The position numbers and the translations under genes were made by a program. The notes below the pieces were generated by a model. It was not told the DNA's origin. It saw only the letters and a list, made by a program, of their open reading frames with translations, and made no database searches. Of a DNA stretch of 64,000 nt, positions 351 through 48,147 are shown one piece after another; the first letter of the stretch is position 1, and each line of letters opens with the position of its first letter. This DNA comes from an uncultured Methanosarcinales archaeon. GTDB taxonomy: Archaea > Nanobdellota > Nanobdellia > Woesearchaeales > JACPBV01. The stretch covers positions 4,878-68,877 of the forward strand of contig CAZSRD010000005.1 of NCBI GenBank assembly GCA_964609455.1. The letters are read 5' to 3'.

Positions 351-977
351 ATGAAACCTTACAAAGATACAGAAAACAAGATATTGGGAAACTTACTAAG
401 ACAGCCCCTGAAAAGCAAAAGTTTGCATCAGATTGCATTGGATACTGCGTTAACTTATGTAACTGTGCATAAAATAATACCTATCTTATTAAAAAGAAAA
501 TTAATAAAATTAGAAAAAAAAGGAAAGGCGAATCTTATCAGCATAGACTTTGAAAATTCCAGGATAGAGGATTTAAGCTCAGCCATATTGCATGAAAAAG
601 CTAAATTAATGAAAAAATACCCTCAAATTGCCATCTTAATAAGGGATATAGGGGAAGAACTGGCAGGAAAGCTCTATATACTGCTTTTTTTTGGCTCTTA
701 CGCTAAGGAAAATCCAAGAAAGGACTCTGATGTAGATTTGCTTTTTATTATTCAAGAAAGAAAAGATATTGAAGCTTATAAAGAGAAAATTAATAAAGCC
801 TTGAAGTTATCAACATTAAAAAAGGATTTTAATATAGTTACAACAAATGATTTCATAGATATGCTAAACCAGAAATATTCAGTTGGCAGAGGGGCTTTTG
901 AACAAGGAATTGTTCTTTTTGGAACAGAACCTTATTATGTTATGGTGAAAGAGCATGTTACAAAAAGAGGATATTGA
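351..977 (+). CDS. minimal nucleotidyltransferase (MNT) protein with an N-terminal winged-helix-like region
   Basis: Motif GSYAKENPRKDSDVDLLF matches the GS...DxD polymerase-beta/MNT signature. The ORF overlaps the following gene by 23 nt. Confidence 0.6.
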   Translation: MKPYKDTENKILGNLLRQPLKSKSLHQIALDTALTYVTVHKIIPILLKRKLIKLEKKGKANLISIDFENSRIEDLSSAILHEKAKLMKKYPQIAILIRDIGEELAGKLYILLFFGSYAKENPRKDSDVDLLFIIQERKDIEAYKEKINKALKLSTLKKDFNIVTTNDFIDMLNQKYSVGRGAFEQGIVLFGTEPYYVMVKEHVTKRGY

Positions 978-1566
978 AGAAGCTAAGAAACTCTTTAAAG
1001 AGTGGGACAATAAGCATATTTGGGATGCTCCTGAGCCTGCTTTTTTGGACCATACAAAGAAAAAAGCACAAGATTCTTTAAATTTGGCATTATACCTTTT
1101 AGATAAGGTTGAGCAGACAGAAGAACTTGAAGGCAACGATACAGTTACTATCTGGATTATTGCTGCAAGCTATTATTCAATGTTTTTTCAAGTTGAATAC
1201 TTATTGGGATTGGATGGAAAAAAGCTCCCAAGAGGAACAAAAGATACCCATAAAACAATTTATCTCGCTTTTATCTATTATTACATTGTTAAAGGCTCTG
1301 AACTAGAACAGAAAAAGCCCAAAGAGATAACAACGAGCAGAATGTCAAAAGCTTTGGCAATGTTTAAGGAATTGCAGGATGAAACTCTTGAGCTTCATAG
1401 AATAGAGAAAAGCGCTAAGGATTTGAAAAAACAAAAAGAACAACGGCACGAGTTTACTTATCAAATGAACAGGACAGCAGAAGTTTCTGAAGCAAAAAAC
1501 AGCACTATCAAAGCAACGCAATTTAGGGAATTAATTGAAGAGTATATAATGGCAAAGCAAGGGTAA
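955..1566 (+). CDS. putative HEPN-like partner of the MNT protein (toxin-antitoxin-like pair)
   Basis: Overlaps the MNT ORF in the usual MNT-HEPN order. Contains an R-x5-H candidate (RGTKDTH). Helical with a coiled-coil C-terminal tail. Confidence 0.35.
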   Translation: MLQKEDIEEAKKLFKEWDNKHIWDAPEPAFLDHTKKKAQDSLNLALYLLDKVEQTEELEGNDTVTIWIIAASYYSMFFQVEYLLGLDGKKLPRGTKDTHKTIYLAFIYYYIVKGSELEQKKPKEITTSRMSKALAMFKELQDETLELHRIEKSAKDLKKQKEQRHEFTYQMNRTAEVSEAKNSTIKATQFRELIEEYIMAKQG

Positions 1567-2019: not shown

Positions 2020-2068
2020 TTCTTAGAAAAGGTTTATATACCATCTTTAATTCTTATTAGGATAATTT

Positions 2069-5000
2069 ATGGTTGGGGGGTTAAAGATTAAGAAAATATT
2101 AAGATTACTTTCTATTTTTGTAGTCATCTTCATAGTTTCTTTTTCTCTTGTATATGCATTAGGGGACACTAGGTCAAACTTTTTAAATATGGTACCCTTA
2201 CGTGAAAAACGCGAAATTAATACTTATGAACTTATAAAAAATTTTAACACATTGTATATATTAGATGAATATAACTCATTGCAAGCCCCTAGTGGATATT
2301 TATGGGTGGTTGATTCTCATTTAGGTAATAATAAGTTACTTAAAATAAACCCCTTAGATGGTAGTATAGAGGCCAGTTTTGATATAATTAGTAGCCCAAG
2401 TTTAATAGGTCTCGCTTTTGATGGAAATAATCTTTGGATATCTGATTCTAATAATAATAAGATATATAAATATTCTAGGGCGGGTTTATTACTAAATACA
2501 TATGATTGTCCGTCCCCTTGTCGTTATCCTTATGGCCTTACATGGGATGGAAATAACTTATGGGTTGCAGCAGAAACTTCTACTTATAGGGATTATAAAT
2601 TATTTAAACTATCTTCTGATTTAGGGAGTATACTTACTTCTATTGATATTCCTGTAGAATATCCTTGGGATCCTGAAGGACTAACTTGGGATGGTTCCTA
2701 CCTTTTATATACTGAAGACTCATTTAATGGTTATCTAAGAAAAGTTACGCCGTTAGGACAGATATATTCTAGGATTTATAGTGAATATGATATTTTTGGC
2801 CTTGCTTTTGATGGGCAAAACCCTTGGGTTTCTTTATGGGGTTCAAGTTCTCAACCAGCTTATATTGGGAAACTAGGTGCAGATTATAGGTTAAGTTTTG
2901 CTAAAGAATACCCGGGGATTCTACCTAGAGATTCTGCTTGGGAATCTACGTCGGTTTGTGATTGTGGCTCTTGGTCAAACCAAGGTTGCGGTCAGGGAGG
3001 TTGTGCAGCAGACAAAATGTATCAGACAAGAACATGCAATCCATCTGGTTGTGATACACAATCTCAATGTGTTAGTGATGCAAGTTGTAATCCGCAATGC
3101 TCAGGTACAGACACTTCATGCGGCACTTACCCTAGTTGTACAAACTGCAACTCCAATGATGGCTGCAATGGTGATTCCTATAGGAATTATTATTGTGTAA
3201 GTAATGCTGCTGGATGTAGCTATACATCTGATAACTGTAATGACTGCTCATGCACATGCGGCGGGTATAACACAGCAGAAACAACTGCAAATGGAAATTG
3301 CGGCGATGGAAAAGATAATGACTGTGATGGAGATACTGATGGAGCTGATTCTGGTTGCGCAACATGCTCAGGTACAGACACTTCATGCGGCACTTACCCT
3401 AACTGTTTGAATTGTAATTCTTATGATACCTGCTCAGGAAATTATTATTACAACTATTACTGTTCCGGAACTTCCTGTACTTATTCTTCTGACAGCTGCA
3501 CTGACTGCTCATGCACATGCGGCGGGTATAACACAGCAGAAACAACTGCAAATGGAAATTGCGGCGATGGAAAAGATAATGACTGTGATGGAGATACTGA
3601 TGGAGCTGATTCTGGTTGCCAATCATGTGAATGCAGTTCTGAAGTATGTTGTGATGGCTGCCATTATAAACCTTCAGGAAGCCAGCCAACAGGATATACT
3701 GATGATTCAAATGGGTTCTGTGATGGCTCTAATTCTCCAACAGGAACAAATTATGTAAAGACAAGGGATTATTACTGCGATGGGGTTGACGCAGGTTTAC
3801 ATTATTTAGATACTATAGTTGATACATGCAGTACTTGTGAATACTGCACAAATAATGACTTAACATGCAATTATTATACTTCTTCTACTGTTTGCGGTTC
3901 GCAGGATTGCGACTACCTTGATACAATATGCAGGGACTATATTGATATGAATATGTATTGCAGCGGAAGCAGCAGTACCTGTAGTGCTTTTTGTTCTTCT
4001 TATACAAATGCTCCTGCCGGAACTTCATGTGGGGCTAGTCAGGAATGCGATGGTAATGGAAATTGCATTCAGGTAAGCCATTGCAATAATGGTGTAAAAG
4101 ACTATGATGAGTTAGGTATAGACTGCGGCGGAAGCTGTTCAAATCACGATTGTTGTGAGAACAATTATGAAGATTCTAATCTAGGTGAAGATGGTGTTGA
4201 TTGTGGTGGAGTTTGCCATTATAGTTGTGTTGTCCCAGTTATTTTGGTTCATGGTTATCTTAGCACCTCTGCTTCTTTATCAAATTTTGAGAATTGGTTG
4301 AGGGCAGATGGCTTCGCAGTTTATAATGTTGATTATGCACAGGGTTCTGCTTTTGCTAATGGGGATATTACTGATTACGCAAAAGTCCTATGTAAAGAAA
4401 TAGACCGAATTAGGAGAGTTGAAAAAGTAAATTATGTGGATATAGTTGCTCACTCAATGGGGGGCCTGGTAGCGAGGGAGTGCTTATTGCATTATGAAAC
4501 ACAAAAGGGAGTAAGGAAACTAATAATGTTGGGAACACCAAATCATGGCACTAATGCATTCGAGTCAAGTAAATATTTCACAACCTATATTGTCTCAATA
4601 TTTGATATAGGCCGTGGCTATTTGCAAGATGTTGCTTTATTGAATAGTATATTGGGGGTTGCAAGAAATCAAATGAGAGTATGCTCCCCATTTTTGAATC
4701 ACCTTAATTTTGGCGGAGATGTTGATAAAAGCAAGTGTGAATATCCTGAGAAGAGCACAGATATTTTAGTTAATGAGGTGGAGTATGATAATTTGGCAGG
4801 AGTTGTTGGATTGAGTTCCTTATTTCATCTTAAAAATAATGATATGTTAGTTAGTGTTGTTAGTGCTTATCTGGATGGAGCTTATAGAAATAATCCTGCG
4901 TATGGGTATGACCACTTTAAACTTGTTAAAGAAACAGAAACTTACCAGTGGGTGAAATCTGTCCTGGATGAAGAAGTAGTTGGTTCTTTAAGTAAGCTAA

Positions 5001-7576
5001 GCTTAAATTCAGATAAGATGGTTGCCCTAACAGAAGCAGGGCCTTCTGAAGAGGATTACCAGGAATTGCCTGAAATCAATGGGACAATCTATCCTGGTCA
5101 GATAAAGAACCATAGCATTAGCGTTGATTCTGCGCAGGAAATTATGTTTTCATTAGTTAGTTTTGCAGAGAATGTTAGCTTTTATTTGATTGACCCTAAT
5201 GGATTGAAAGTTGATGAAACATATTGTATAAGCAATAACCAGTGCAATTATTCTTTTTTTAGCGGTATTCATGGTTATGACATTTTAGGGCCCGTCACTG
5301 GGAATTGGAGCCTTATTATCGAAGCTGTAAATGTGAATGAAAGCGGCGATGATTATGCTATACTTACCAGTTTAATAACCGATCTTCACTTATCCCCAAC
5401 TACTCAAATAGTCCGATATAGGCTTAACGAACAGATGAACATAACAGCAAATCTTACAAAAAATGGAGATGCAGTTCTTGAAGCTGTATTGACAGCTAAA
5501 ATTCACAGGTCAGATGGTGTTGAAAGTTTGCTTGACCTATACGATGATGGGATACATAATGATAATTCAGCTAATGATGGAGTCTATGGAAATGCTTATA
5601 CAGATACGGATGAATATGGTGCTTATGATTTAGACATTACTGCCAAAGGCAGTTATAACGGAAACTTGTTTAGCAGGGCAGCACAATTTACTCTCTGGGT
5701 AGAAGACTATCCAGACTTGCTTGTTAAAACTATTTCTTTTTCTAATTCTACTCCAGTAGAAGATGAAAATGTTGTAATCTCTACTTTAATTGGTAATATT
5801 GGCGAAAAAGAAGCCATAAACGCCACAATAGAATTTTACCATTCGACTAAATATGAAGATGAGTTTATTGGCGAAGCCAATGTTAGCTTAGGTATTGGAG
5901 AAGAAGGCATTGCATCTGTTAATTGGACAAATATTACTGCGGGAGAATATAATGTTACTGTTTTGGTTTCTCCTTTTAATTCGTTTTTGGAGAGCGATTA
6001 TTCGAATAATAGGCTGGGAAAAAATATTACTATCCGAAGCAAATATTCGTTTAATATAAAAGTTTTTTCTCCAATCAATAAAATATACTATACAAATTCT
6101 ATTGATTTAAATTGGACTCTTAATCAAAGTGTTAGCTGGTGTGGATATAGTATAGACAGCAAAGAAGATGTAAGTATTCTTAGGAATGATGTGTTTTGTT
6201 GGGGTAGTAATTCCCATGGTGGATCTGATCCTTATAATGGGGGAAATGCAGTTCAGGTAGATTCTGGATGGGGGAATAATTGCGTTCTAAAATCAAACGG
6301 CAATGTACAATGCTGGGGGTATAGTAAATATGGTGAGTCAGATCCTTACAATGGCGGAGATGCAATCCAAGTATCTGCTGGTTATTATCATACTTGCGTT
6401 CTAAAATCAAACGGCAATGTACAATGCTGGGGGTATAGTAAATATGGTGAGTCAGATCCTTACAATGGCGGAGATGCAATCCAAGTATCTGCTGGTTATT
6501 ATCATACTTGTGTCCTTAAATCAAACGGCAATGTACAATGCTGGGGGTATAATGAGGATGGTAGAGCTGATCCCTACAATGGAGGAAATGCAATTCAAGT
6601 TTCTGCTGGTGTTTCTCATACTTGCATTCTAAAATCAGGTGGCAATGTAAAATGCTGGGGATTAAATGACCAAGGTCAAGTAATCTCCTATAATTTGGGA
6701 AATGCAATTCAAGTCTCTGCTGGTGCTTCTCATACTTGCATTCTAAAATCAGGTGGCAATGTAAAATGTTGGGGATTAAATGACCAAGGTCAATCAGAAC
6801 CTTATAATGGTGGAGACGCAATACAATTATCTGCTGGTGTTTGGCATAATTGTGTTCTTAAATCAAATGGGAATGTTCATTGTTGGGGAGATAATTATAG
6901 TGGTAAATCTACAGATTATAATGACGGAGACGCAACCCAGATATCTGTTAATTGTTGTAATACTTGTGCTATGATACATTCTGAAGGCAATTTAACTCTT
7001 AAGGATTTGCAACAAGGCGTACATAGCCTAGTTGTTTCTTGTAATGCTACCCTGGGTAGGATTGGTAAATCTAAGGATATCTTTTTTTTAGTAGCAACTA
7101 AAATCTATAATCTTACTTTAAGTGAGAATTGGAACTTGATTTCGCTACCAATAAGCTTATCAGATAATTCAGTAAACTCAGTATTCAGCAATATCAAATC
7201 AATCTTTACTTATGCTCCTTGGCTTTATTATTTCAACGAAACTAATAACAACTTCAATACAATCGATGAAACAAAGGCTTATTGGGTCAATTCGCTGGAA
7301 AACCAGACATTGACAATTGAGGGAATGGAGTTTGAGTATCCTATTTTCTTTAACCTGACTGAAGGGTGGAACCTAATTGCTTACCCTTCTTTGAATGTTA
7401 GTTTGATCAATGAAAGTTTGAAAGATGTTGAGTATGGGTCTATCTTGACATATAAAGATGATAACTGGCATTCTGGATTTGGTTTAGAGAATCTGACGCC
7501 CTGGCAGGGTTATTGGGTTAAGGTTCCTGCTAATGTTACTTGGGGCTTTGACGGCAGTGTTTTCAAAGAATCTTAG
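2069..7576 (+). CDS. giant secreted surface protein: signal peptide, beta-propeller-like repeats, Cys-rich tandem repeats, Lipase_2-like alpha/beta hydrolase, CARDB-like domain, RCC1-like repeats, shared C-terminal module
   Basis: N-terminal hydrophobic signal. NNLWISD/NNLWVAAE/GLTWDG blades. PVILVHGY plus DIVAHSMGG (GxSxG) as in Bacillus LipA. DLLVKTISFSNSTPVEDENV is CARDB-like. Seven repeats of CWG..G.....HTC.LKS.GNV.CWG. C-terminus GWNLIAYPSLN...WQGYWVKV. Confidence 0.85.
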   Translation: MVGGLKIKKILRLLSIFVVIFIVSFSLVYALGDTRSNFLNMVPLREKREINTYELIKNFNTLYILDEYNSLQAPSGYLWVVDSHLGNNKLLKINPLDGSIEASFDIISSPSLIGLAFDGNNLWISDSNNNKIYKYSRAGLLLNTYDCPSPCRYPYGLTWDGNNLWVAAETSTYRDYKLFKLSSDLGSILTSIDIPVEYPWDPEGLTWDGSYLLYTEDSFNGYLRKVTPLGQIYSRIYSEYDIFGLAFDGQNPWVSLWGSSSQPAYIGKLGADYRLSFAKEYPGILPRDSAWESTSVCDCGSWSNQGCGQGGCAADKMYQTRTCNPSGCDTQSQCVSDASCNPQCSGTDTSCGTYPSCTNCNSNDGCNGDSYRNYYCVSNAAGCSYTSDNCNDCSCTCGGYNTAETTANGNCGDGKDNDCDGDTDGADSGCATCSGTDTSCGTYPNCLNCNSYDTCSGNYYYNYYCSGTSCTYSSDSCTDCSCTCGGYNTAETTANGNCGDGKDNDCDGDTDGADSGCQSCECSSEVCCDGCHYKPSGSQPTGYTDDSNGFCDGSNSPTGTNYVKTRDYYCDGVDAGLHYLDTIVDTCSTCEYCTNNDLTCNYYTSSTVCGSQDCDYLDTICRDYIDMNMYCSGSSSTCSAFCSSYTNAPAGTSCGASQECDGNGNCIQVSHCNNGVKDYDELGIDCGGSCSNHDCCENNYEDSNLGEDGVDCGGVCHYSCVVPVILVHGYLSTSASLSNFENWLRADGFAVYNVDYAQGSAFANGDITDYAKVLCKEIDRIRRVEKVNYVDIVAHSMGGLVARECLLHYETQKGVRKLIMLGTPNHGTNAFESSKYFTTYIVSIFDIGRGYLQDVALLNSILGVARNQMRVCSPFLNHLNFGGDVDKSKCEYPEKSTDILVNEVEYDNLAGVVGLSSLFHLKNNDMLVSVVSAYLDGAYRNNPAYGYDHFKLVKETETYQWVKSVLDEEVVGSLSKLSLNSDKMVALTEAGPSEEDYQELPEINGTIYPGQIKNHSISVDSAQEIMFSLVSFAENVSFYLIDPNGLKVDETYCISNNQCNYSFFSGIHGYDILGPVTGNWSLIIEAVNVNESGDDYAILTSLITDLHLSPTTQIVRYRLNEQMNITANLTKNGDAVLEAVLTAKIHRSDGVESLLDLYDDGIHNDNSANDGVYGNAYTDTDEYGAYDLDITAKGSYNGNLFSRAAQFTLWVEDYPDLLVKTISFSNSTPVEDENVVISTLIGNIGEKEAINATIEFYHSTKYEDEFIGEANVSLGIGEEGIASVNWTNITAGEYNVTVLVSPFNSFLESDYSNNRLGKNITIRSKYSFNIKVFSPINKIYYTNSIDLNWTLNQSVSWCGYSIDSKEDVSILRNDVFCWGSNSHGGSDPYNGGNAVQVDSGWGNNCVLKSNGNVQCWGYSKYGESDPYNGGDAIQVSAGYYHTCVLKSNGNVQCWGYSKYGESDPYNGGDAIQVSAGYYHTCVLKSNGNVQCWGYNEDGRADPYNGGNAIQVSAGVSHTCILKSGGNVKCWGLNDQGQVISYNLGNAIQVSAGASHTCILKSGGNVKCWGLNDQGQSEPYNGGDAIQLSAGVWHNCVLKSNGNVHCWGDNYSGKSTDYNDGDATQISVNCCNTCAMIHSEGNLTLKDLQQGVHSLVVSCNATLGRIGKSKDIFFLVATKIYNLTLSENWNLISLPISLSDNSVNSVFSNIKSIFTYAPWLYYFNETNNNFNTIDETKAYWVNSLENQTLTIEGMEFEYPIFFNLTEGWNLIAYPSLNVSLINESLKDVEYGSILTYKDDNWHSGFGLENLTPWQGYWVKVPANVTWGFDGSVFKES
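3098..3619 (+). repeat. in-frame tandem duplication, 2 x about 261 bp, encoding an 87-aa Cys-rich unit; the 117-bp cores 3242-3358 and 3503-3619 are identical
   Basis: CSGTDTSCGTYP...CSCTCGGYNTAETTANGNCGDGKDNDCDGDTDGADSGC occurs twice. The repeat also explains the spurious overlapping ORFs in both strands here. Confidence 0.8.
6180..6960 (+). repeat. RCC1-like tandem repeats with a 120-bp period; two copies are nearly identical at DNA level (6301-6420 and 6421-6540)
   Basis: Repeated tgctgggggtatagtaaatatggtgagtcagatccttacaatggcggagatgcaatccaagtatctgctggttattatcatacttg. Confidence 0.8.
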
Positions 7577-8799
7577 AGCTTATCTAGAATCTGGCTTATA
7601 TAAAAAACAGGTATAAAATCAATTGCACACCCCTTTTCCTTTCTTTTTCCAGTGAATTGGTCTGCTGCTACAAACCCTTTTTTTGGCCTGTATTTTTCAA
7701 TGAAACTCATGAAGGATCTTGTAACCTTCTCCGATAACAATAGGGATTTTACCTCAAGCGGATAAACTTCATTATTTTTTATTATGACAAAATCAACTTC
7801 TGCTTTGGATTTGGAACGCCAATACCTCAACTCAAGCTCTTTTTTTATAATTTCAGAAGCGATGAAGTTCTCATTCAAAATGCCTTTGTCGATTCTTTTG
7901 TCAAGTTCTTGAAAACTGCTAATTACTATATTTCTGAATCCATTGTCAAAAAAATATATTTTGGGATTTTTGGTTAATTCTATCCTTTTATTGGTATAAT
8001 ATGGCCTGCTCATTTTACAAATAAACGTTTTTTCTAAGATATTGAGGTGCCGCAATAACTCGTAATGGCTGAAACCTGTTAGACTTGACAGTTCGTTATA
8101 GTTAATCAAACCGCCTATCTGCAATGACAGCACTTTAATAAGTTTGCTTAGCTTAAAATCAGCGGTTAACCCTAAAATCTCTTTTATCTCCTTTAGAAAA
8201 TAGGTATTATAGATGTTTTTCAACACTATTTCCTTTTCTTCTTTATTATGGGCAATAACAACTCTGGGGTAGCCCCCATAGGCGGCATATTCTTTGTAAA
8301 GCCCATAAATATGTTTTATGATAATCTTTGATAAATTTCCTTTAGTATAAATTTTTTCATAGATCTCTTTGCCCTTATAGCTTAAAAATTCTTCAAATGA
8401 GAATGGAAAAAGATTAAACACAAAAATCCTTCCAACAAGGTATTTAATGCTTTTAATTGTCAGCCCTGTTGCAGATGAGCCCGATATAAATATTTTGATA
8501 TTATAATTATCATAAATAAACTTGAGACTTTTGCCCCCGTCAGAGGCATATTGAAACTCATCAATAAAGAGGTACTTGTTTGGTTTTACGTATAGCTCTA
8601 TAAATGAGCTTATGTCTGTCATAAAAAGCTCAAGTTTTTCCCTATCTTCAAAATCAATAAATACTGCATTTTTTAGATTTTTAAATATGCGGTTTAGCAG
8701 GGTAGTCTTACCGCATTGTCTTGGCCCCATAACTGCTATGACCTCTTTTTTATTAAGGTACTTTAATAGTGTTTTTTCCAATGTTCTTGGTATGTACAT
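7573..8799 (-). CDS. AAA+ ATPase of the archaeal ATPase/DUF4143 type
   Basis: Walker A motif VMGPRQCGKTTLL. Overall layout typical of AAA_14/DUF4143 proteins. Confidence 0.7.
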   Translation of the reverse strand: MYIPRTLEKTLLKYLNKKEVIAVMGPRQCGKTTLLNRIFKNLKNAVFIDFEDREKLELFMTDISSFIELYVKPNKYLFIDEFQYASDGGKSLKFIYDNYNIKIFISGSSATGLTIKSIKYLVGRIFVFNLFPFSFEEFLSYKGKEIYEKIYTKGNLSKIIIKHIYGLYKEYAAYGGYPRVVIAHNKEEKEIVLKNIYNTYFLKEIKEILGLTADFKLSKLIKVLSLQIGGLINYNELSSLTGFSHYELLRHLNILEKTFICKMSRPYYTNKRIELTKNPKIYFFDNGFRNIVISSFQELDKRIDKGILNENFIASEIIKKELELRYWRSKSKAEVDFVIIKNNEVYPLEVKSLLLSEKVTRSFMSFIEKYRPKKGFVAADQFTGKRKEKGCAIDFIPVFYISQILDKL

Positions 8800-10092: not shown

Positions 10093-13023
10093 ATGCTTGT
10101 AATTCTTTCTAGTTTTGCTTATGCAGAGGAGATAATTGAGTTTAGCTCATTACCAGGAATCATAGAGACCAACATTCCTTCTTTTCCGGTAACTGGAAGA
10201 GTTCCTGCTACAACTAAAACTGTTTATATTAATGGAATAAATACCACTTTTTATTCTACTTCAAATTATCGTTTTGATTTCTTCATTGTTGTAGATTTAG
10301 TTGAAGGTATAAACATAATTAACTTGATAGTAATTGATCAAAACGGTTCAGAACAGATTTACTCAAAACAAGTTGAATTTTACACTAATTATTCAACAGA
10401 AGAAAGTGAATTAGTATATGCAAATTCTCAGCCAAGGGATATTGATGGAATAACCTACAATAGCATACTTGTTATTGACACAAAAAGTAATACTTTTATT
10501 GGAGCAATAAAAAATAAGAATGTGCTTGCTATAACTAAAAATGGTTCAGAAATAATATTATCTGATGGAAGCAGGTATTCAACAAAAAATCACAGTTTTA
10601 CTGGAAGGATTTTGCCAAATTTTGATCATATCTGTGATTTGGTTTTCTCAAACCACCAGGATTATTTATACCATAAATATTATCAAATTAACTTAAGTTC
10701 AAATTTAGTTAAAGCAACTTCATTTCCTAGTTTATGCTATTACTCAGATATAACCAGTGACGATGAAGCAATAATAACCTACAATGGTTACATAAACCTT
10801 ACATCTAAATCCATAATATCAAAAGATTATGTTAATGGCCGTATGCCCCTGATGGGTAACCTTAGGGTTGATCCTACAGACAAATATGTATTGCATTCTA
10901 GTTATGGTTCTGCTACAGGAGAGTTGAATGTTTTAGATATAGATACTACCAATATACTTCAAACTGTTGGTGGAGGAGATTATGCTGGAGATATTGTTTT
11001 TTCTCAGGATGGAAGCAAAGCCTATAGCGGTTTCTATGGAAATACTTGGTTTGGTTTTGGCAGGATAGCCATACTGGATATGCTAACCTTGAATCTAGAC
11101 AGCTATTTTGATCTGCAAGGTTCAATATCATTAGCTGTTTCAAAAAATGGAGAGATATATTCTTCTGCATTTTACACGCTAAATGCAGGTAAATACTTAG
11201 GGAAACCTGAGCAAAGAGGAATAATCAAGCTAAAACCAATAAATAATGGGCAAAACCTTCAGATTGACAAGGTTTTTTTTGTTAGCCTTAAAAGCACCCT
11301 TAGTGAACCTTATTATGGTTCAAACAACATATTCTACAAGCCAGGAATTGATAACTATACCTGTAGTTCAGACATTGAATGTGGGTTAGATGGATGGTTA
11401 GGAGCTCCATCTTGCCAGAATGCTAATGTGTATCAGACTTTAGTTTCATATCATTGCACAAATCCTGCAACAGAAAACTCATACTGTTCAAACATAACAG
11501 GATTAACCCTTAAGCAAGAGTGCGCTTTTGGTTGTGATGATGGAACATGCAATAAAAAGCCAGTTAGTACAGGAGCCATAAAAGTTATTGGAAGAAAGTT
11601 ATTTGTTGATGGAGTTGACTTTAAGATAAAAGCAGTTGGCTATGCACCTGTTCCTATTGGATACAGTGGCGATAGTTATGACATAACAGTACATAAAGAG
11701 CTGCGAGACAGGGATTTTCCTCTATTGAGGGCAATGAATACAAACGCTATAAGGACATGGGGAAAGGTTAACAGCATATCTTTCTTAGACGATGCATGGA
11801 ATAATGGAAACAACCCAATTAGGGTGATAATGGGTTATTGGATGGGTCCAGAAAGAGACTACCAAAGCGAAACTATCAGGCAATCCATACTTGATGATTT
11901 TGAGGATTATGTTCAAGCATATAAAGACCACCCTGCTGTGCTCGTTTGGGCAATTGGTAACGAAGAAAATAATTTTTATGGTGGCGGCAATAATGAAAAA
12001 CATGCAGCATACTTTTCTTTGGTTGATGAGATGGCAAAAAAGACATACACCCTTGAAGGTCCATCTTATCATCCTGTTGTTGCAGTTTCCCTTGAAATGC
12101 CAGGACAACTTGCTACTGTTGGAAGTTACGCAGGAGGAAGCGATGATGGCAGCATACAATATGTGGATATTTGGGGGATTAACAATTACCCAATTTATAC
12201 ATTTGGTGATTTTTTTGATAAGTTTGCAGAAAAAACATCTAAGCCATTGCTTATTACAGAGTATGGCATAGATGCATTGAACAATACTAACAAGAATGAG
12301 TATGAAGGCGCTCATGCAGAATGGGTCTTAAACCAATGGGATGAAATATACTCGTCCGATGTTACTATTGGAGGAAGCTTGATGGCCTATTCAGACGAGT
12401 GGTGGAAAGGCAATAATTTTGGTTGTGACAACAGCAACACTCATGGTTATTGCGGTTATACTACAGATTCCCATCCAGATAATTATGCTAACGAAGAATG
12501 GTGGGGCATAATGAGAATAGTAGAAAATGGTGATGATCCAAATATAATGCAGCCAAGACAAGTTTATTATACTTTGATGTCAGCATTTGAGGATAAACAA
12601 CACCAAACCCTAAAACTTAACAATGGCTGGAATCTGGTATCGATAAATTTGAACTTGACAAAAAATATTGCAGATTTCCTGCTTGATAATTTTTTAATAC
12701 TAGGCTATAATGGGTCGTGGTTTTATCCTGAAGAAATAGATGTGAATGATGGTTACTGGATTGATTCTGATTTCAATTTGAAGTTTAATCTTTTTGGAGG
12801 TCAAGTTGAGGATGATATAACTCTACAGGATGGATGGAACCTTATTGGTTATCCAAGCTTAAATGAAACAAACATATCAACTTTTGCAGATGAGATTAAT
12901 GTTACTAATGTGTTTATGTATGAGAATGGCACATGGAAATCATACAAACCAGACAAGCCATCTTACTTAAACACAATTACAAAGGCAAAGCCAGGTTATG
13001 GCTATTGGGTTAAAGTAGAGTAA
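10093..13023 (+). CDS. secreted clan GH-A (TIM-barrel) glycoside hydrolase carrying the shared C-terminal module
   Basis: VLVWAIGNEEN (acid/base, NE-type) and LLITEYGIDA (nucleophile, TEYG-type) are GH-A signatures (GH2/GH5/GH72-like). C-terminus GWNLIGYPSLNET...KPGYGYWVKVE. Confidence 0.7.
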   Translation: MLVILSSFAYAEEIIEFSSLPGIIETNIPSFPVTGRVPATTKTVYINGINTTFYSTSNYRFDFFIVVDLVEGINIINLIVIDQNGSEQIYSKQVEFYTNYSTEESELVYANSQPRDIDGITYNSILVIDTKSNTFIGAIKNKNVLAITKNGSEIILSDGSRYSTKNHSFTGRILPNFDHICDLVFSNHQDYLYHKYYQINLSSNLVKATSFPSLCYYSDITSDDEAIITYNGYINLTSKSIISKDYVNGRMPLMGNLRVDPTDKYVLHSSYGSATGELNVLDIDTTNILQTVGGGDYAGDIVFSQDGSKAYSGFYGNTWFGFGRIAILDMLTLNLDSYFDLQGSISLAVSKNGEIYSSAFYTLNAGKYLGKPEQRGIIKLKPINNGQNLQIDKVFFVSLKSTLSEPYYGSNNIFYKPGIDNYTCSSDIECGLDGWLGAPSCQNANVYQTLVSYHCTNPATENSYCSNITGLTLKQECAFGCDDGTCNKKPVSTGAIKVIGRKLFVDGVDFKIKAVGYAPVPIGYSGDSYDITVHKELRDRDFPLLRAMNTNAIRTWGKVNSISFLDDAWNNGNNPIRVIMGYWMGPERDYQSETIRQSILDDFEDYVQAYKDHPAVLVWAIGNEENNFYGGGNNEKHAAYFSLVDEMAKKTYTLEGPSYHPVVAVSLEMPGQLATVGSYAGGSDDGSIQYVDIWGINNYPIYTFGDFFDKFAEKTSKPLLITEYGIDALNNTNKNEYEGAHAEWVLNQWDEIYSSDVTIGGSLMAYSDEWWKGNNFGCDNSNTHGYCGYTTDSHPDNYANEEWWGIMRIVENGDDPNIMQPRQVYYTLMSAFEDKQHQTLKLNNGWNLVSINLNLTKNIADFLLDNFLILGYNGSWFYPEEIDVNDGYWIDSDFNLKFNLFGGQVEDDITLQDGWNLIGYPSLNETNISTFADEINVTNVFMYENGTWKSYKPDKPSYLNTITKAKPGYGYWVKVE

Positions 13024-13856: not shown

Positions 13857-14258
13857 GTGAGAAAGACAGCTTTAATTATCACTTTATTGGCAATCTTTTT
13901 TCTTTCAATCGTTTGGATTAGTGCAGAAAAAGGACAGGATCTTTTGTATAACCTCTCTGTTGAAGTTAGCAATGTAACCATGCTTAGCCCAACTCCAGAT
14001 TTGAATTTTGGAACTCTAAGGAAAGGCGAATCTGCTACTAAATCTATAACTTTGACAAACCCATTCCTATCTTTTCTTAGCATAAATGCTACATTCGATG
14101 GAGTACCAGAAGAATGGGCAGATGTTAATAGGGATTTTTTCATAGGTCCGTTTATGTCAAAAAAATTTTATATTACAATTTCTATACCAGAAGATTCGAG
14201 TGTAGGAATCTATAAGGGCAATGTCCTAATAAAAGCAAGAAGGAAATTAATAATATGA
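13857..14258 (+). CDS. small secreted or membrane-anchored hypothetical protein, possibly Ig-like fold
   Basis: N-terminal hydrophobic segment. No catalytic motif. Confidence 0.35.
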   Translation: MRKTALIITLLAIFFLSIVWISAEKGQDLLYNLSVEVSNVTMLSPTPDLNFGTLRKGESATKSITLTNPFLSFLSINATFDGVPEEWADVNRDFFIGPFMSKKFYITISIPEDSSVGIYKGNVLIKARRKLII

Positions 14259-16321
14259 ACAAAACAATTTTACTGATAATCATAGCAACAGTTTTGTTAA
14301 GTTCTTACGCTTTTGCAGGTACTTTTAATCAGCAAATCTATGGGCAGCTGGTTAGCTTTGTTAATTGCACAAATTGGATTAAAGATGGTGACGAGACAGA
14401 TATAGATTGCGGGGGTTCCTGTTCAAAGTGCGTTGATGGAAAGAACTGCTTAGTCAACTCTGGATGCTTGAGTAACTATTGCAACTTAAATAAGATATGC
14501 TCTACTCCTAATTGTCTAGATGGTTGGCAAAATCAGGACGAAATAGGAGTTGACTGCGGTGGAAGTTGCCCACCTTGTGTAAGTTGCAATAATAGGATAA
14601 AAGATGGTGATGAGGCGGGTGTTGATTGTGGGGGGAGCTGTTCAGATCCATGTTATGAATGGAGAGTTTTGGCTTTGCCTATAAGTTGGTCAGGCTCACA
14701 TCAGGAATTTGTAGATGATGTAGTCAATCAAATGAATTTTTTTATAAACTCAACCGATTTAGATAACTGCAGGGAAAGAATCTTTGTAGATATATTGGAT
14801 GCAGATGTTCATAATTTTAGGGATTTTTCTTGTTCTTTGAAGAACTGCGGTGTTGGTAGCATAAAGCCTTTTGTTGAAAGATTTGGGATAAACCTTAATC
14901 AATATGACCATATAATCGCATTTACAGATTCTTCGCCTTGCCCACCTTTTGAGGGATGTTCTAATGGGGAGGATGTTGCATGGGTAAGCGTTACTTATGA
15001 AACTGTTGCTGCACATGAAATAGGGCATTTCTATGGATTAGAGGATGAATATTGCAGCAATCAGGCTGGCTCAACACATCCCAACTGCAATGACGGCAAT
15101 GATGGATGGTGGAAAGATGGAAGTTATATCTTTCCAGATGATATAAACTACCTTGGGGCTGATTTGGGGTGTGACCCCCATATTGGCGATTGCTGCTCTG
15201 ATTGCAGTAAAGGAAATGATCCAAATGACCCCAATAATGATTATTTTGCCTGTTGCCATGGGAATATAGTTAATGCTCAGGGGGGTAGGGCAATAATGTC
15301 TTATGCTAATGCTCCTGGACCAAGAGCTTTTGATGATAGGTCTAAAGCTCATTTAAGCACTTTTCCAAAGCTTAGTTGCCCTAATCAAATTCAAGCGACG
15401 CAATTAGCTTCAGTAGTTTCAGATAAAATTATTGATTTGGATTTGTTGATACACAAGAATGATTCTATTTTGAATCAGAGAATAAATTTGGTAGATGGAA
15501 GTCCTTCAATTGTTAATTCAGAGGAAGGAATCTACAGTTTGCTGATAAAAGATGTAAATGGAATTGCCTTATTTAATTACACCTTTGAGCCATTTTTTTA
15601 TTACAATGGCCCTTTTGTTAAAGATGCAAATTATAGCGGAATAAATCTTGACGAGTATGACTTAAGCTTAAGAATAGGATATGATGATGAAATGCGCCAG
15701 CTGGAGTTAAGGAAGAATTCAACTATAATCTTTTCAGAGTTATTAAATTTCTGCAACCAAGATGAGGTATGCAACGGCTCTGAAACATATCTTTCATGCT
15801 GGGATGACTGCAAGTCTTATTCCCAGGATGGCTTATGCCTGAATTATTCTGGAGATGGCTGCGATCCTGATTGTGCTAAAGGTGTTGATTCTGATTGTAT
15901 ATCATTTAATCTCTTTTTTGATGATGATTGGAGCCTGATGTCAATACCTCTGGAGTTGGTGAATAGTTCTATTGCCTACTTGTTTTATGGGTTTAATATA
16001 AGCATTTATGGCTATAAGAATAGTTCATGGTTTGTGCCTGAAGAAATTGATAATAAGTTAGGTTATTGGGTTAAATCAAATGAGTCTAATAATATAACCT
16101 TGATTGGAACTAAGGTTAAGAATGGATTAATTGTTAATGGTCCAGGATGGCAATTAATTGGTTATCCTAACCTTGATGAGTCTTTGGTCAATGAAAGCTC
16201 CTTAAATGAATCGATTGTTTACGCTTATAATGGAACCTGGTCTATGTACAACATAGATAATAGGTTTACTAAACTGGATAAATTTATACCAGGATATGGC
16301 TATTGGGTCAAAGTTGAGTAA
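14255..16321 (+). CDS. secreted M64-like zinc metalloprotease with three N-terminal Cys-rich repeats and the shared C-terminal module
   Basis: HEIGHFYGLEDEY matches the Peptidase_M64 HExxHxxGLxDEY motif. Three repeats of KDGDE..(I/V)DCGGSC..C. C-terminus GWQLIGYPNLDES...IPGYGYWVKVE. Confidence 0.65.
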   Translation: MNKTILLIIIATVLLSSYAFAGTFNQQIYGQLVSFVNCTNWIKDGDETDIDCGGSCSKCVDGKNCLVNSGCLSNYCNLNKICSTPNCLDGWQNQDEIGVDCGGSCPPCVSCNNRIKDGDEAGVDCGGSCSDPCYEWRVLALPISWSGSHQEFVDDVVNQMNFFINSTDLDNCRERIFVDILDADVHNFRDFSCSLKNCGVGSIKPFVERFGINLNQYDHIIAFTDSSPCPPFEGCSNGEDVAWVSVTYETVAAHEIGHFYGLEDEYCSNQAGSTHPNCNDGNDGWWKDGSYIFPDDINYLGADLGCDPHIGDCCSDCSKGNDPNDPNNDYFACCHGNIVNAQGGRAIMSYANAPGPRAFDDRSKAHLSTFPKLSCPNQIQATQLASVVSDKIIDLDLLIHKNDSILNQRINLVDGSPSIVNSEEGIYSLLIKDVNGIALFNYTFEPFFYYNGPFVKDANYSGINLDEYDLSLRIGYDDEMRQLELRKNSTIIFSELLNFCNQDEVCNGSETYLSCWDDCKSYSQDGLCLNYSGDGCDPDCAKGVDSDCISFNLFFDDDWSLMSIPLELVNSSIAYLFYGFNISIYGYKNSSWFVPEEIDNKLGYWVKSNESNNITLIGTKVKNGLIVNGPGWQLIGYPNLDESLVNESSLNESIVYAYNGTWSMYNIDNRFTKLDKFIPGYGYWVKVE

Positions 16322-30287: not shown

Positions 30288-30452
30288 AATTTAGTGAATT
30301 ACCTATCAAAAAACGATAGATTTAAATATAATGAGGAAATTCAACGCATAATGGCAGTTAATCTTTCTTTAGTTGAAATGCTATGATATTGAGCGTTATA
30401 TAATTATAAGAGGAAGAACTGCCTTTGCAATATAAAACAAAGCAGATATGGT

Positions 30453-30541
30453 GCCCTGGTGGTGTAGTGGCCTATCATGAAGCCCTGTCGATGCTATAGA
30501 AGCAGAACGGCTTCGACCCGAGTTCGAATCTCGGCCGGGGC
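30453..30541 (+). tRNA. tRNA-Asp(GTC) with an intron of about 17 nt in the anticodon loop
   Basis: GCCCTGGTGGTGTAGTGGCCTATCATG-AAGCC-CTGTC-G[ATGCTATAGAAGCAGAA]C-GGCTT. T-arm CCGAG-TTCGAAT-CTCGG. Acceptor 3' strand CCGGGGC. Closely matches archaeal tRNA-Asp. Confidence 0.8.
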
Positions 30542-30544
30542 GTA

Positions 30545-47700: not shown

Positions 47701-48147
47701 AAGTTGTATGCTCTTTACGTTAGAATCATCCACCAATTTTTCAAGGCCATGTTTAGTTATTTTTCCAGAGAATCCATTTACAGTAGAATATTTATGCTTC
47801 AATTTAAAATCCACATTATCTATATCAAAAAATGAACTATTTTTAGTTTGTTTTTTATAGTCTTCCATATTTAACTTTGAAAGAACCCTCTCTTGCTGTT
47901 CCCCCACCATTAGTTTTTTCTGTTCTAAGCCAGCTTTTTTTGCTTCATTAACCTGCATAAATGGAGCATCTGTTTGTGATATAAGTTCAGGCTCGTCTTT
48001 TAACATTACAATTACGGAAGCCTCCCCTTTATCTTCCAACTCCCCTCCAATTAAAGGGTCTACTCTTTCCGCATAAATTAGTTTTGTAGCTATTAACAAG
48101 AATACTAAAATCAAAAACCCCTTTTTTATTCTATTACTACAGCACAT
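44748..48147 (-). pseudogene. subtilisin-like S8 protease with a C-terminal transmembrane anchor, split by a +1 frameshift in a G7 homopolymer (C7 on the plus strand at 47015-47021)
   Basis: Upstream fragment 47005-48147 has VIDTGVDYNHSDL (Asp) and HGHGTHVTGIVAS (His). Downstream fragment 44748-47000 begins APGVDITS...GTSMSTPHVAG (Ser). Removing one G fuses the frames. A poly-Gly linker and a C-terminal TM helix follow. Confidence 0.7.

What the first reader, a model, noticed from the sequence alone, without database searches (positions are those of the whole stretch)
2069..7576. 1835-aa chimeric exoprotein with two internal perfect DNA-level tandem duplications
Domain order is signal peptide, beta-propeller-like blades, Cys-rich units (a 117-bp perfect repeat, 3242-3358 and 3503-3619), Lipase_2-type esterase (DIVAHSMGG), CARDB-like domain, seven RCC1-like 40-aa repeats (120-bp units, two of them identical), then the shared C-terminal module. 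Perfect nucleotide identity between repeat units implies very recent duplication or ongoing gene conversion. It also makes the locus prone to length variation and to assembly collapse.
Basis: seen in the sequence. Interest (0 to 1): 0.6.

Follow-up and report, generated by a model that had tools for sequence, protein, structure and literature searches.

The report
Repeat-rich secreted lipase of DPANN archaeon
This is a real 1835-residue secreted multidomain lipase-like protein of an uncultivated Woesearchaeota-type archaeon whose internal repeats are kept identical by recombination, which makes public assemblies of the same organism disagree by exactly one repeat unit; it is a good example of an ordinary phenomenon.

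Summary
The ORF (2069-7576, +, 1835 aa) and its repeats are real. A 118-nt stretch (3241-3358) recurs exactly at 3502-3619. The RCC1-like array has seven units, but they are 114 nt / 38 aa, not 120 nt / 40 aa. Period 114 is exact over 231 nt (6280-6510).

- signal peptide;
- weak NHL/Vgb-lyase-like propeller;
- a 425-aa region with 64 cysteines;
- an alpha/beta-hydrolase of the Bacillus LipA type (AHSMG; Ser796-Asp925-His949);
- CARDB;
- a complete seven-bladed BLIP-II-type propeller;
- a C-terminal module shared with the neighbouring glycosidase-like and zincin-like genes.

The host is a DPANN archaeon.

The Cys-rich identity is a gene-conversion mosaic: exact blocks flank a core only 60% identical. 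Repeat units in a 43%-identical homologue are homogenised independently, which indicates concerted evolution.

Three other public contigs of the same population have no SNPs against the window. Two lack exactly one 114-nt unit, and one of those starts inside the 118-nt repeat. The third starts inside the RCC1 array. The seven-unit allele cannot be explained as the loop artefact I tested. The six-unit contigs are probably collapses.

The C-terminal module belongs to a very large family (about 35,000 clusters) with no Pfam or PDB match. Overall this is ordinary, with one modestly novel by-product.

The parts
2033..2040 (+). TTTATATA, an archaeal TATA-box-like element 29 nt upstream of the ATG, which implies a leaderless or short-leader mRNA
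   Evidence: Read directly in the sequence. The function is inferred, not tested.
2069..7576 (+). Whole gene, 1835 codons plus stop
   Evidence: Identical DNA is found in contigs from other assemblies.
2069..2161 (+). Signal peptide or N-terminal anchor (aa 1-31, MVGGLKIKKILRLLSIFVVIFIVSFSLVYAL)
   Evidence: It is the only hydrophobic segment in the protein (Kyte-Doolittle). No signal-peptide predictor was available.
2246..2938 (+). NHL / virginiamycin-B-lyase-like beta-propeller with 4-5 G[LI][AT][FW]DG blades (aa about 60-290)
   Evidence: PDB 2z2n E 1e-7. Pfam Vgb_lyase, NHL and SGL are all below their cut-offs. Blade motif found.
2954..4228 (+). Disulfide-rich region, 64 Cys in 425 aa: a CxCxxW...C module, two 87-89-aa units, further Cys modules and two xDCGGxC modules
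   Evidence: No Pfam model matches, even at E<=10. The modules recur in unrelated DPANN proteins P0005, P0007, P0009 and P0010 and in ORF 14255-16321.
3098..3364 (+). Cys-rich unit 1 (aa 344-432)
3365..3625 (+). Cys-rich unit 2 (aa 433-519)
3097..3134 (+). Exact 38-nt block, identical to 3364-3401 (conversion tract)
3241..3358 (+). Exact 118-nt block, copy 1. Contig L088 starts at 3245.
3502..3619 (+). Exact 118-nt block, copy 2
4229..4963 (+). Alpha/beta-hydrolase (lipase/esterase) domain with the AHSMG elbow. Ser796 (nt 4454-4456), Asp925 (4841-4843) and His949 (4913-4915). An insertion of about 90 aa lies between the core and the acid/His segment.
   Evidence: Pfam Palm_thioest, PGAP1, Abhydrolase_1, Abhydrolase_6 and DUF676 score above their cut-offs. 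PDB Bacillus LipA E 3e-6 with the triad aligned, and PhaZ7. Residue coordinates.
4964..5710 (+). Beta-rich spacer region, including a choice-of-anchor-X-like segment (aa 1155-1192)
   Evidence: NCBIfam NF041940, 29.1 bits against a cut-off of 25
5711..6016 (+). CARDB domain
   Evidence: Pfam PF07705, 37.8 bits against a cut-off of 22.7
6179..6982 (+). Seven-bladed RCC1/BLIP-II-type beta-propeller made of seven 38-aa units
   Evidence: Seven RCC1_2 stretches. BLIP-II 1jtd_B E 1e-16. AF2 model with pLDDT above 90 over this span. Foldseek against BLIP-II gives target-normalised TM 0.86 over 282 columns.
6280..6393 (+). The 114-nt unit that is missing from contigs L001 and L088. It is identical to 6394-6507, and period 114 is exact over 6280-6510.
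6613..6654 (+). A further exact 42-nt intra-array repeat (= 6727-6768). Logan contig L089 starts at 6739.
7076..7573 (+). C-terminal two-lobed all-beta module (GWNLIS...GYWVK, twice)
   Evidence: AF2 pLDDT 88.6. No Pfam, NCBIfam or PDB match. 34,927 representative clusters.
12574..13020 (+). The same C-terminal module at the end of the 976-aa glycosidase-like protein (gene 10093-13023)
15902..16318 (+). The same C-terminal module at the end of the 688-aa zincin-like protein (gene 14255-16321; HEIGHFYGLEDEY and three DCGGSC modules)

Best explanation
The gene encodes a secreted, probably surface-retained, multidomain lipase/esterase of a Woesearchaeota/Nanoarchaeia (DPANN) archaeon.

Domain order, with the basis for each:
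- Signal peptide (inferred).
- NHL-like propeller (weak support).
- A disulfide-rich stalk of shuffled Cys modules (shown as sequence; function inferred).
- A catalytic alpha/beta-hydrolase of the Bacillus LipA / PhaZ7 'AHSMG' type with an intact Ser-Asp-His triad (shown by alignment; activity and substrate inferred).
- Beta-sandwich spacers including CARDB (shown).
- A complete seven-bladed BLIP-II-type propeller that most likely binds a protein or glycan partner (fold shown; role inferred).
- A C-terminal two-lobed beta module.

The C-terminal module is also carried by the adjacent glycosidase-like and zincin-like secreted proteins. It most likely targets or tethers all three to the same surface structure (inferred from its position and its promiscuity).

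The exact DNA repeats come from recombination between repeat units within the gene:
- Short gene-conversion tracts act between the two old, diverged Cys-rich units.
- Conversion or unequal exchange acts within the RCC1 array.

The seven-unit allele in the window is real. The six-unit versions in two MEGAHIT assemblies are most likely collapses of the 117-nt exact repeat, although a genuine six-unit allele is not excluded.
For: Organism:
- Split RpoB, RpoA'/A'', aEF-2 and aEF-1alpha are present.
- RpoB' is 90% identical to Nanoarchaeota/Woesearchaeota MAGs.

Domains:
- Pfam, NCBIfam and PDB hits.
- The triad aligns to the Ser-Asp-His catalytic triad of Bacillus LipA, with the motif AHSMGG. The AHSMG pentapeptide is a recognised hallmark of Bacillus and Paucimonas lipases (PMC9408867).
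- The propeller model superposes on all of BLIP-II: target-normalised TM 0.84-0.86, rmsd 2.6 A. It has seven strand groups with N-terminal strand closure.

Extracellular location:
- There is a single N-terminal hydrophobic segment, and 90 Cys of which 64 fall in 425 aa.

Architecture is not an assembly chimera:
- P0002 (43% identity, 83% coverage, a different sample) keeps the order Cys unit, hydrolase, CARDB, 7 RCC1 units, C-terminal module.
- P0004 sits at the syntenic position, upstream of HIT-HIT-Peptidase_A24.

Conversion:
- Mosaic with P about 2e-12.
- Homologous blocks elsewhere are only 79-81% identical at nucleotide level.
- Units cluster within each protein.
- Homologue L082 also has 81- and 60-nt exact stretches in its array.

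Assemblies:
-, as described above.
- Re-traversing a loop through the shared 34-mer of a six-unit genome would differ from the window at 3 sites. The array has repeated k-mers only for k<=99 of the usual MEGAHIT k series.
- Seven units match the blade number of P0002 and BLIP-II.

C-terminal module:
- It is at the extreme C-terminus in 3 of 3 window proteins and in 115 of 127 single-copy top hits.
- It is attached to very varied extracellular domains.
Against: - No enzymatic, localisation or read-level data exist.
- The Pfam Lipase_2 model itself does not hit. The hydrolase has an insertion of about 90 aa that is absent from LipA.
- In the two closest full-architecture homologues the nucleophile is Asp, not Ser (AHDMGG, GYDMGG). 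Ester hydrolysis may therefore not be the conserved function of the family.
- Archaeal membrane lipids are ether-linked, so the natural substrate is unclear.
- Both MEGAHIT assemblies, from two different samples, agree on six units. That is also what a real, dominant six-unit allele would give.
- The role of the C-terminal module is inferred only from position and distribution. 8 of 127 top hits carry it right after the N-terminus, and 23 of 150 have several copies, which fits a binding module as well as a sorting signal.
Confidence: 0.7

Rival explanations
1. The six- versus seven-unit difference is a genuine copy-number polymorphism in the population, caused by unequal recombination or slippage in the RCC1 array. 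It is not an assembly collapse.
For: Two assemblies from two different samples (ERZ27248937 and ERZ27248895) both carry the six-unit form, with 0 SNPs elsewhere. At k=119 and k=141 the array has no repeated k-mers, so a k141 assembly could in principle have resolved it. The exact 231-nt periodicity is what a very recent single-unit duplication or deletion would leave.
Against: A six-unit array would be one blade short of the seven found in P0002 and in BLIP-II, onto which the seven-unit model superposes fully. Both six-unit contigs come from the same assembler. The same assemblies also break at the other repeats, which shows that the repeats do disturb assembly here.
Confidence: 0.3
2. The perfect repeats in the window are themselves assembly artefacts: a spurious extra unit, or two diverged copies merged into one consensus.
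For: The window comes from an uncultivated organism, so it is presumably a metagenome assembly. Other assemblies disagree in unit number.
Against: The 118-nt blocks and everything else are identical in the independently assembled L001, and partly in L088. Loop re-traversal of the six-unit sequence does not reproduce the window; it differs at 3 sites. Junction k-mers for a second unit must therefore come from reads. Homologue L082, from an unrelated sample, shows the same kind of intra-array exact stretches.
Confidence: 0.07
3. The protein is mainly an adhesin or binding factor, for example one that attaches to a host or inhibits a host enzyme through the BLIP-II-like propeller. The hydrolase domain would be accessory or non-catalytic in this family.
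For: The nucleophile is Asp instead of Ser in P0002 and P0003. Most of the protein's length is binding-type domains: propellers, CARDB, Cys modules and the C-terminal module. BLIP-II, the closest solved structure, is a tight-binding enzyme inhibitor.
Against: The window protein and P0004 keep Ser, and all four homologues keep the acid and His. That argues for selection on catalysis. Asp nucleophiles are known in alpha/beta-hydrolases such as haloalkane dehalogenases and epoxide hydrolases (my own knowledge). The two neighbours that share the C-terminal module also carry hydrolase-like domains.
Confidence: 0.2
4. The nucleotide identity is maintained by selection on the DNA or RNA itself, for example a structured element or a codon constraint, and not by recombination.
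For: None beyond the identity itself.
Against: The orthologous or paralogous 39-aa block is 80-87% identical as protein but only 79-81% as DNA in L082 and L083. Rfam finds nothing here. The exact tracts have sharp borders next to a 60%-identical core, which is the signature of conversion.
Confidence: 0.03

Closest known systems
Bacillus subtilis lipase A (LipA/EstA, lipase family I.4; PDB 1i6w, 3d2b) and Paucimonas lemoignei PhaZ7 PHB depolymerase
   Same: It has the AHSMG(G) nucleophile elbow in place of GxSxG. The PVxxVHG start is shared, and the Ser-Asp-His triad aligns. These are the best sequence matches among solved structures.
   Different: LipA is a free 181-aa minimal enzyme. Here the domain is embedded in a 1835-aa archaeal protein and carries an insertion of about 90 aa. 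It scores only E 3e-6, and the Pfam Lipase_2 model does not hit. Close homologues have Asp at the nucleophile position.
BLIP-II (beta-lactamase inhibitor protein II, Streptomyces exfoliatus; PDB 1jtd, 3qhy) and RCC1_2 repeat propellers
   Same: It is a compact seven-bladed propeller with blades of about 38-39 aa. Sequence match E 1e-16. The model superposes over the whole of BLIP-II (target-normalised TM 0.86).
   Different: Here it is one domain of a giant protein rather than a free inhibitor. Its blades are being homogenised at the DNA level. No beta-lactamase context is present.
Repeat-bearing microbial surface proteins that evolve by intragenic recombination, such as streptococcal alpha C/Rib, staphylococcal and Candida ALS-type adhesins (my own knowledge, not tested here)
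   Same: There are near-identical in-frame tandem units. Units are more alike within a gene than between orthologues. Unit number differs between sequences.
   Different: The repeats here are blades of a closed propeller, where the number is structurally constrained, and Cys-rich modules. They are not free-standing stalk repeats. The host is a DPANN archaeon.
C-terminal sorting or anchoring domains such as the T9SS CTD of Bacteroidota (PMC4804311)
   Same: The C-terminal module works like one in its distribution. It is an all-beta domain of about 160 aa at the extreme C-terminus of many otherwise unrelated secreted proteins, including several hydrolases in one genome.
   Different: There is no sequence or fold match to the T9SS CTD or to any Pfam, NCBIfam or PDB entry. 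The host is an archaeon without an outer membrane. The module is sometimes N-terminal or repeated.
MopE-type 'putative metal-binding motif' (Pfam PF11617, CxDGxDNDCDGxxD)
   Same: The 118-nt exact block encodes CGDGKDNDCDGDTDGADSGC. Homologues found through this region carry precomputed PF11617 hits.
   Different: hmmscan of the window units gives no PF11617 hit, even at E<=10. The full 87-89-aa unit has no family model.

Membership tests
Lipase family I.4 / Pfam Lipase_2 (PF01674) | Ala-His-Ser-Met-Gly nucleophile elbow | tested here: met
   DIVAHSMGG at aa 791-799. It aligns to the LipA elbow.
Lipase family I.4 / Pfam Lipase_2 (PF01674) | Ser-Asp-His triad in the LipA positions | tested here: met
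   Ser796, Asp925 (NNDMLV) and His949 (GYDHF) align to LipA SSDDMIV and GVGHM.
Lipase family I.4 / Pfam Lipase_2 (PF01674) | Match to the family model above threshold | tested here: not met
   PF01674 is not among the hits at E<=1. Only homologue P0003 has a precomputed PF01674 hit. The general alpha/beta-hydrolase models do pass.
Lipase family I.4 / Pfam Lipase_2 (PF01674) | Minimal lid-less fold of about 180 aa | tested here: not met
   An insertion of about 90 aa separates query residues 114 and 208 in the two aligned segments.
Lipase family I.4 / Pfam Lipase_2 (PF01674) | Lipolytic or esterase activity | not testable with these tools
   This needs an enzyme assay.
RCC1_2 / BLIP-II-type seven-bladed propeller | Seven RCC1_2 repeats | tested here: met
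   PF13540, 198 bits, 7 stretches. Seven CWG-anchored 38-aa units.
RCC1_2 / BLIP-II-type seven-bladed propeller | Closed seven-bladed fold | tested here: met
   AF2 pLDDT above 90 over aa 1371-1638. Foldseek against 1jtd_B gives target-normalised TM 0.86 over 282 columns. This is a predicted, not a solved, structure.
CARDB (PF07705) | Model match above the gathering score | tested here: met
   37.8 bits against a cut-off of 22.7, aa 1215-1316.
NHL-repeat / Vgb-lyase beta-propeller | Model match above the gathering score | tested here: inconclusive
   NHL 18.5 bits against 20; Vgb_lyase 20 against 50; PDB 2z2n E 1e-7 over 94 aa. Four clear blade motifs.
T9SS C-terminal sorting domain (TIGR04183 / PF18962) | Sequence match to the CTD model, and a diderm host with T9SS | tested here: not met
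   No hit in Pfam or NCBIfam. The host is an archaeon.
Archaeosortase substrates (PGF-CTERM and relatives) | C-terminal tripartite signal with a transmembrane helix | tested here: not met
   There is no hydrophobic segment other than aa 4-35. The protein ends ...GFDGSVFKES.
MopE-type metal-binding motif (PF11617) | Model match | tested here: not met
   No hit at E<=10 on the isolated units, although the DNDCDG motif is visible in the sequence.
Concertedly evolving intragenic repeats (gene conversion) | Paralogous units are more similar within a gene than to positional counterparts in an orthologue, and identity extends to synonymous sites with sharp tract borders | tested here: met

The most novel reading that the evidence does not exclude
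The shared C-terminal two-lobed beta module (GWNLIS...GYWVK, twice) could define a very large, so far undescribed family of archaeal cell-surface targeting or anchoring domains. Under that reading, the three adjacent genes (lipase-like, glycosidase-like, zincin-like) form a tethered exo-enzyme set. A biosynthetically poor DPANN cell would use it to harvest lipids, glycans and peptides from a host or from its surroundings. The repeat homogenisation in the binding domains would be a by-product of rapid recombinational remodelling of that interface.
Probability: 0.3. Interest if true: 0.6.

Novelty: new member of a known kind. Interest (0 to 1): 0.35.

Why it matters
Three practical points follow.

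First, this is a documented case in which repeats inside a DPANN surface-protein gene make public assemblies of one population disagree. One propeller blade is missing in two contigs, and contig ends fall exactly at the repeats. Protein catalogues built from short-read MAGs will systematically mis-size such genes.

Second, the case shows concerted evolution acting on the blades of a closed seven-bladed propeller, where unit number is structurally constrained. That favours conversion over expansion.

Third, it points to a very large C-terminal domain family (about 35,000 clusters at 50% identity) with no Pfam, NCBIfam or PDB counterpart. The family sits on many kinds of secreted archaeal proteins, and here on three neighbouring hydrolase-like proteins. 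It is a concrete handle on how DPANN archaea display enzymes at their surface.

Tried and rejected
- An exact look-up of the 1835-aa product in the contig index found nothing. The six-unit form P0001 was found instead.
- The genome-contig scan with the protein found no relative.
- The metagenome-contig scan returned only the P0004 contig and a short fragment, so no further alleles were obtained.
- Foldseek of the C-terminal module against PDB gave nothing: best E 0.057, TM about 0.2. BFVD gave one hit, a phage 'putative hemin binding protein' (E 6e-4, TMq 0.58), which is probably just another family member and was not interpreted further.
- A profile of the module against PDB sequences gave only noise.
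- Pfam on the isolated Cys-rich units and on the C-terminal module gave nothing at E<=10.
- PADLOC gave nothing for the gene itself.
- Rfam found nothing in the gene.
- Literature searches for DPANN or Woesearchaeota lipase, RCC1 or C-terminal domain reports gave nothing specific.
- Cluster look-ups of ten module-bearing proteins gave no names. The context of P0298 did not settle whether the module also occurs in bacteria.
- Rejected: an assembly chimera, because the architecture is conserved in P0002 and composition is even.
- Rejected: membership of T9SS CTD or PGF-CTERM, because their defining features are not met.
- Rejected: DNA-level selection as the cause of the identity.
Full report
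**1. Checking the observation**

The ORF listing gives one ORF at 2069..7576 (+), 1835 aa (translation).

The stated 117-nt repeat is exact. 3242-3358 equals 3503-3619, and the maximal exact match is 118 nt (3241-3358 = 3502-3619).

The RCC1-like array is real, but its period is 114 nt (38 aa), not 120 nt (40 aa):
- The repeat finder and TRF both give spacing 114.
- Seven CWG-anchored 38-aa units are present, at aa 1377-1642.
- Units 2 and 3 are identical as protein. At DNA level period 114 is exact over 6280-6510 (231 nt = 2 x 114 + 3).

Every exact repeat of 30 nt or more in the 64-kb window lies in this gene, so the signal is far above background.

**2. What the protein is**

Organism. The window carries split RpoB, RpoA'/A'', aEF-2 and aEF-1alpha. 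RpoB' is 86-90% identical to MAGs labelled Nanoarchaeota, Woesearchaeota or Nanoarchaeia. GC content is 35.9%. The host is therefore a DPANN archaeon of the Woesearchaeota type.

Domains, in order:
- aa 1-31: the only hydrophobic segment, hence a signal peptide or anchor.
- aa about 60-290: four to five blades with G[LI][AT][FW]DG. They give sub-threshold NHL, Vgb-lyase and SGL matches, and an E 1e-7 match to virginiamycin B lyase.
- aa 296-720: 64 cysteines in 425 residues. No Pfam model matches, even at E<=10. The region contains two tandem 87-89-aa units and two xDCGGxC modules. The latter are also present three times in the neighbouring ORF 14255-16321.
- aa 721-965: an alpha/beta-hydrolase. 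Palm_thioest, PGAP1, Abhydrolase_1, Abhydrolase_6 and DUF676 all score above their cut-offs. The best solved relatives are Bacillus subtilis LipA variants (E 3e-6), followed by secreted Streptomyces lipases and PhaZ7. The AHSMGG elbow, Asp925 and His949 align with the LipA triad. The AHSMG pentapeptide is the recognised hallmark of that lipase group (PMC9408867, found).
- aa 966-1214: a beta-rich spacer with a choice-of-anchor-X match.
- aa 1215-1316: CARDB.
- aa 1371-1638: RCC1_2 x 7. Sequence match to BLIP-II is E 1e-16. An AlphaFold2 model has pLDDT above 90 across this span and superposes on the whole of BLIP-II (target-normalised TM 0.84-0.86, rmsd 2.6 A). In the model, seven strand groups are closed by the N-terminal strand.
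- aa 1670-1835: the C-terminal module (section 5).

A TATA-like TTTATATA lies 29 nt upstream of the ATG.

**3. Not an assembly chimera**

P0002 comes from an unrelated JGI sample, with 43% identity over 83% of the query. It keeps the order Cys unit, hydrolase, CARDB, seven RCC1 units, C-terminal module. It replaces the N-terminal propeller with a beta-helix.

P0004, from a Nanoarchaeota MAG, lies at the syntenic position upstream of HIT-HIT-Peptidase_A24. It keeps the Cys units, hydrolase, CARDB and C-terminal module, but has other repeats instead of RCC1.

Composition is even across the gene. 'Chimeric' is therefore true only as evolutionary domain shuffling.

One caveat on function. The nucleophile is Ser in the window protein and in P0004, but Asp in P0002 and P0003. 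The acid and His are invariant in all four.

**4. How the repeats arise**

Cys-rich units. A codon-level comparison gives an exact 38-nt block, then a core of 32 codons at 60% nucleotide identity, then an exact 118-nt block. In the core, 9 of 18 amino-acid-conserved codons differ synonymously. At the core's synonymous rate, the chance of no synonymous change in the 39 conserved codons of the 3' block is about 2e-12.

The same 39-aa block compared between units of L083, or between L082, L083 and the window, is 80-87% identical as protein but only 79-81% as DNA. Protein-level constraint therefore does not explain the identity. The pattern of old units with sharp-edged identical tracts is gene conversion, not a recent whole-unit duplication.

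RCC1 array. In a 14 x 14 matrix of unit DNA identities (window against P0002), 13 of the 14 units have their best match within their own protein. Only the degenerate last unit of the window (W7) matches best across proteins, to the last unit of P0002 (Q7). P0002's own array has 81- and 60-nt exact stretches and a two-unit higher-order period. This is concerted evolution recurring in the family.

**5. The C-terminal module**

A profile of the module finds it only at the extreme C-termini of three window proteins:
- the protein under study;
- the 976-aa protein with a weak GH2-type TIM-barrel match;
- the 688-aa protein with HEIGHFYGLEDEY and a signal peptide.

The module is an internal duplication (GWNLIS...GYWV, twice). 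The AlphaFold2 model is confident (pLDDT 88.6) and all-beta, with two similar halves.

It has no match in Pfam, NCBIfam, PDB sequences or PDB folds. An exhaustive HMM search finds 34,927 representative clusters at E<=1e-3 and 15,425 at E<=1e-10.

Among the 150 best hits, 115 of 127 single-copy hits end within 15 residues of the C-terminus, 8 are N-terminal, and 23 are multi-copy. Partner domains are very varied and all extracellular in type: CARDB, fn3, PKD, NosD/beta-helix, VWA, TSP3_bac, DUF11, S_layer_C and Peptidase_C13.

Named sources are mostly archaeal: Nanoarchaeota, Woesearchaeota, Aenigmarchaeota, Altiarchaeota, Thermoplasmata and Hydrothermarchaeota.

I infer a surface-targeting or anchoring role. 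This is not shown.

**6. Length variation and assembly behaviour**

The six-unit protein P0001 (1797 aa) is encoded on ENA contig ERZ27248937:k141_820373. Over 17.5 kb that contig is identical to the window except that it lacks 6280-6393.

The neighbouring 976-aa protein led to two more contigs:
- ERZ27248895:k141_510546 starts at window 3245, 4 nt inside the first 118-nt block. It has 0 SNPs over 19.7 kb and lacks the same 114 nt.
- Logan SRR8437217_18061 starts at window 6739, inside the 42-nt array repeat, and is 100% identical over 13.7 kb.

The P0004 contig also starts inside its Cys-rich repeats.

Reasoning on which form is real (inference supported):
- A six-unit genome contains no exact repeat longer than 34 nt in the array.
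- Re-traversing that 34-mer loop would give a sequence differing from the window at three sites.
- Reads spanning a true unit-unit junction must therefore exist, so the seven-unit allele is real.
- Conversely, the seven-unit form has repeated k-mers for k<=99 of the usual MEGAHIT series, so a loop can be skipped.
- Seven units also match P0002 and the seven blades of BLIP-II.

I therefore rate collapse as more likely than a real six-unit allele, roughly 0.6-0.7 against 0.3. Only reads can decide.

**7. Comparison with known systems, and novelty**

Each identifiable domain belongs to a known kind: an AHSMG alpha/beta-hydrolase close to LipA and PhaZ7, CARDB, and a BLIP-II-type RCC1 propeller. 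Intragenic repeat homogenisation in surface proteins is a well-known phenomenon.

The membership tests show that the hydrolase meets the motif and triad criteria of family I.4. It fails the model-match and minimal-fold criteria, so it works like such a lipase but should not be filed as a member.

The C-terminal module behaves like a sorting or anchoring CTD, but it is not a T9SS CTD or a PGF-CTERM signal.

The gene itself is a new member of a known kind. The unannotated C-terminal family is the only part with some real novelty.

**8. Verdict**

Interest is modest (0.35).

Noticed in passing
window 7076-7573, 12574-13020, 15902-16318: A C-terminal two-lobed beta module is shared by three neighbouring secreted hydrolase-like proteins. 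It belongs to a family of about 35,000 clusters (50% identity) with no Pfam, NCBIfam or PDB match. It is usually at the extreme C-terminus of very varied extracellular proteins.
   Followed up: partly
window 4454-4456 (Ser796); P0002, P0003: The nucleophile-elbow Ser of the hydrolase is Asp in the two closest full-architecture homologues (AHDMGG, GYDMGG), while the acid and His stay invariant. Either the nucleophile has been swapped or these are pseudo-enzymes.
   Followed up: partly
window 14255-16321 (+): A 688-aa secreted protein with three xDCGGSC modules, a HEIGHFYGLEDEY zincin motif and the shared C-terminal module. Pfam gives only a sub-threshold Reprolysin_5 hit.
   Followed up: partly
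window 10093-13023 (+): A 976-aa protein with a weak GH2-type TIM-barrel match and the shared C-terminal module. Its called N-terminus looks like the tail of a signal peptide, so the true start may lie upstream.
   Followed up: no
window 7573-8799 (-), 351-977 (+), 955-1566 (+): The gene is flanked by an AAA_14/DUF4143 ATPase that matches the PADLOC candidate system PDC-S01 (E 1.5e-83; it overlaps the gene's stop by 4 nt), and by a nucleotidyltransferase that matches PDC-M05A/PDC-S09. L001 adds Hint-domain and Fic genes upstream, and the syntenic L083 carries PIN and ParE. This looks like a variable island next to the conserved HIT-HIT-Peptidase_A24 genes.
   Followed up: no
window 44748-47000 (-) and 47005-48147 (-): The 750-aa ORF begins with only the last third of a Peptidase_S8 domain (profile positions 207-273 at residues 2-61), and another ORF lies directly upstream on the same strand. 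This may be a split or frameshifted subtilase.
   Followed up: no
window 30452-30543 (+): tRNA-Asp is 92 nt long, probably intron-containing as is common in archaea. tRNA-Lys follows 2 nt later.
   Followed up: no
N-termini of the window protein, P0002, P0003 and P0005: The homologues share an M-x-G-G-[FL]-[KR] start before the hydrophobic core (MVGGLKIKK, MIGGFRKTG, MFGGFLKGV, MAGGFRRVY). This could be a particular class of signal peptide.
   Followed up: no
window 2954-3097 (aa 296-343): The module CDCGSWSNQGCGQGGCAADKMYQTRTCNPSGC recurs twice in P0009. From memory it resembles a thrombospondin type-1 repeat, but no Pfam hit supports this.
   Followed up: no
BFVD entry A0A8D9C8P8 versus model of window 7031-7573: The only structural hit for the C-terminal module is a 'putative hemin binding protein' of an uncultured marine phage (E 6e-4, TMq 0.58). 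It may be a family member on a virus.
   Followed up: no
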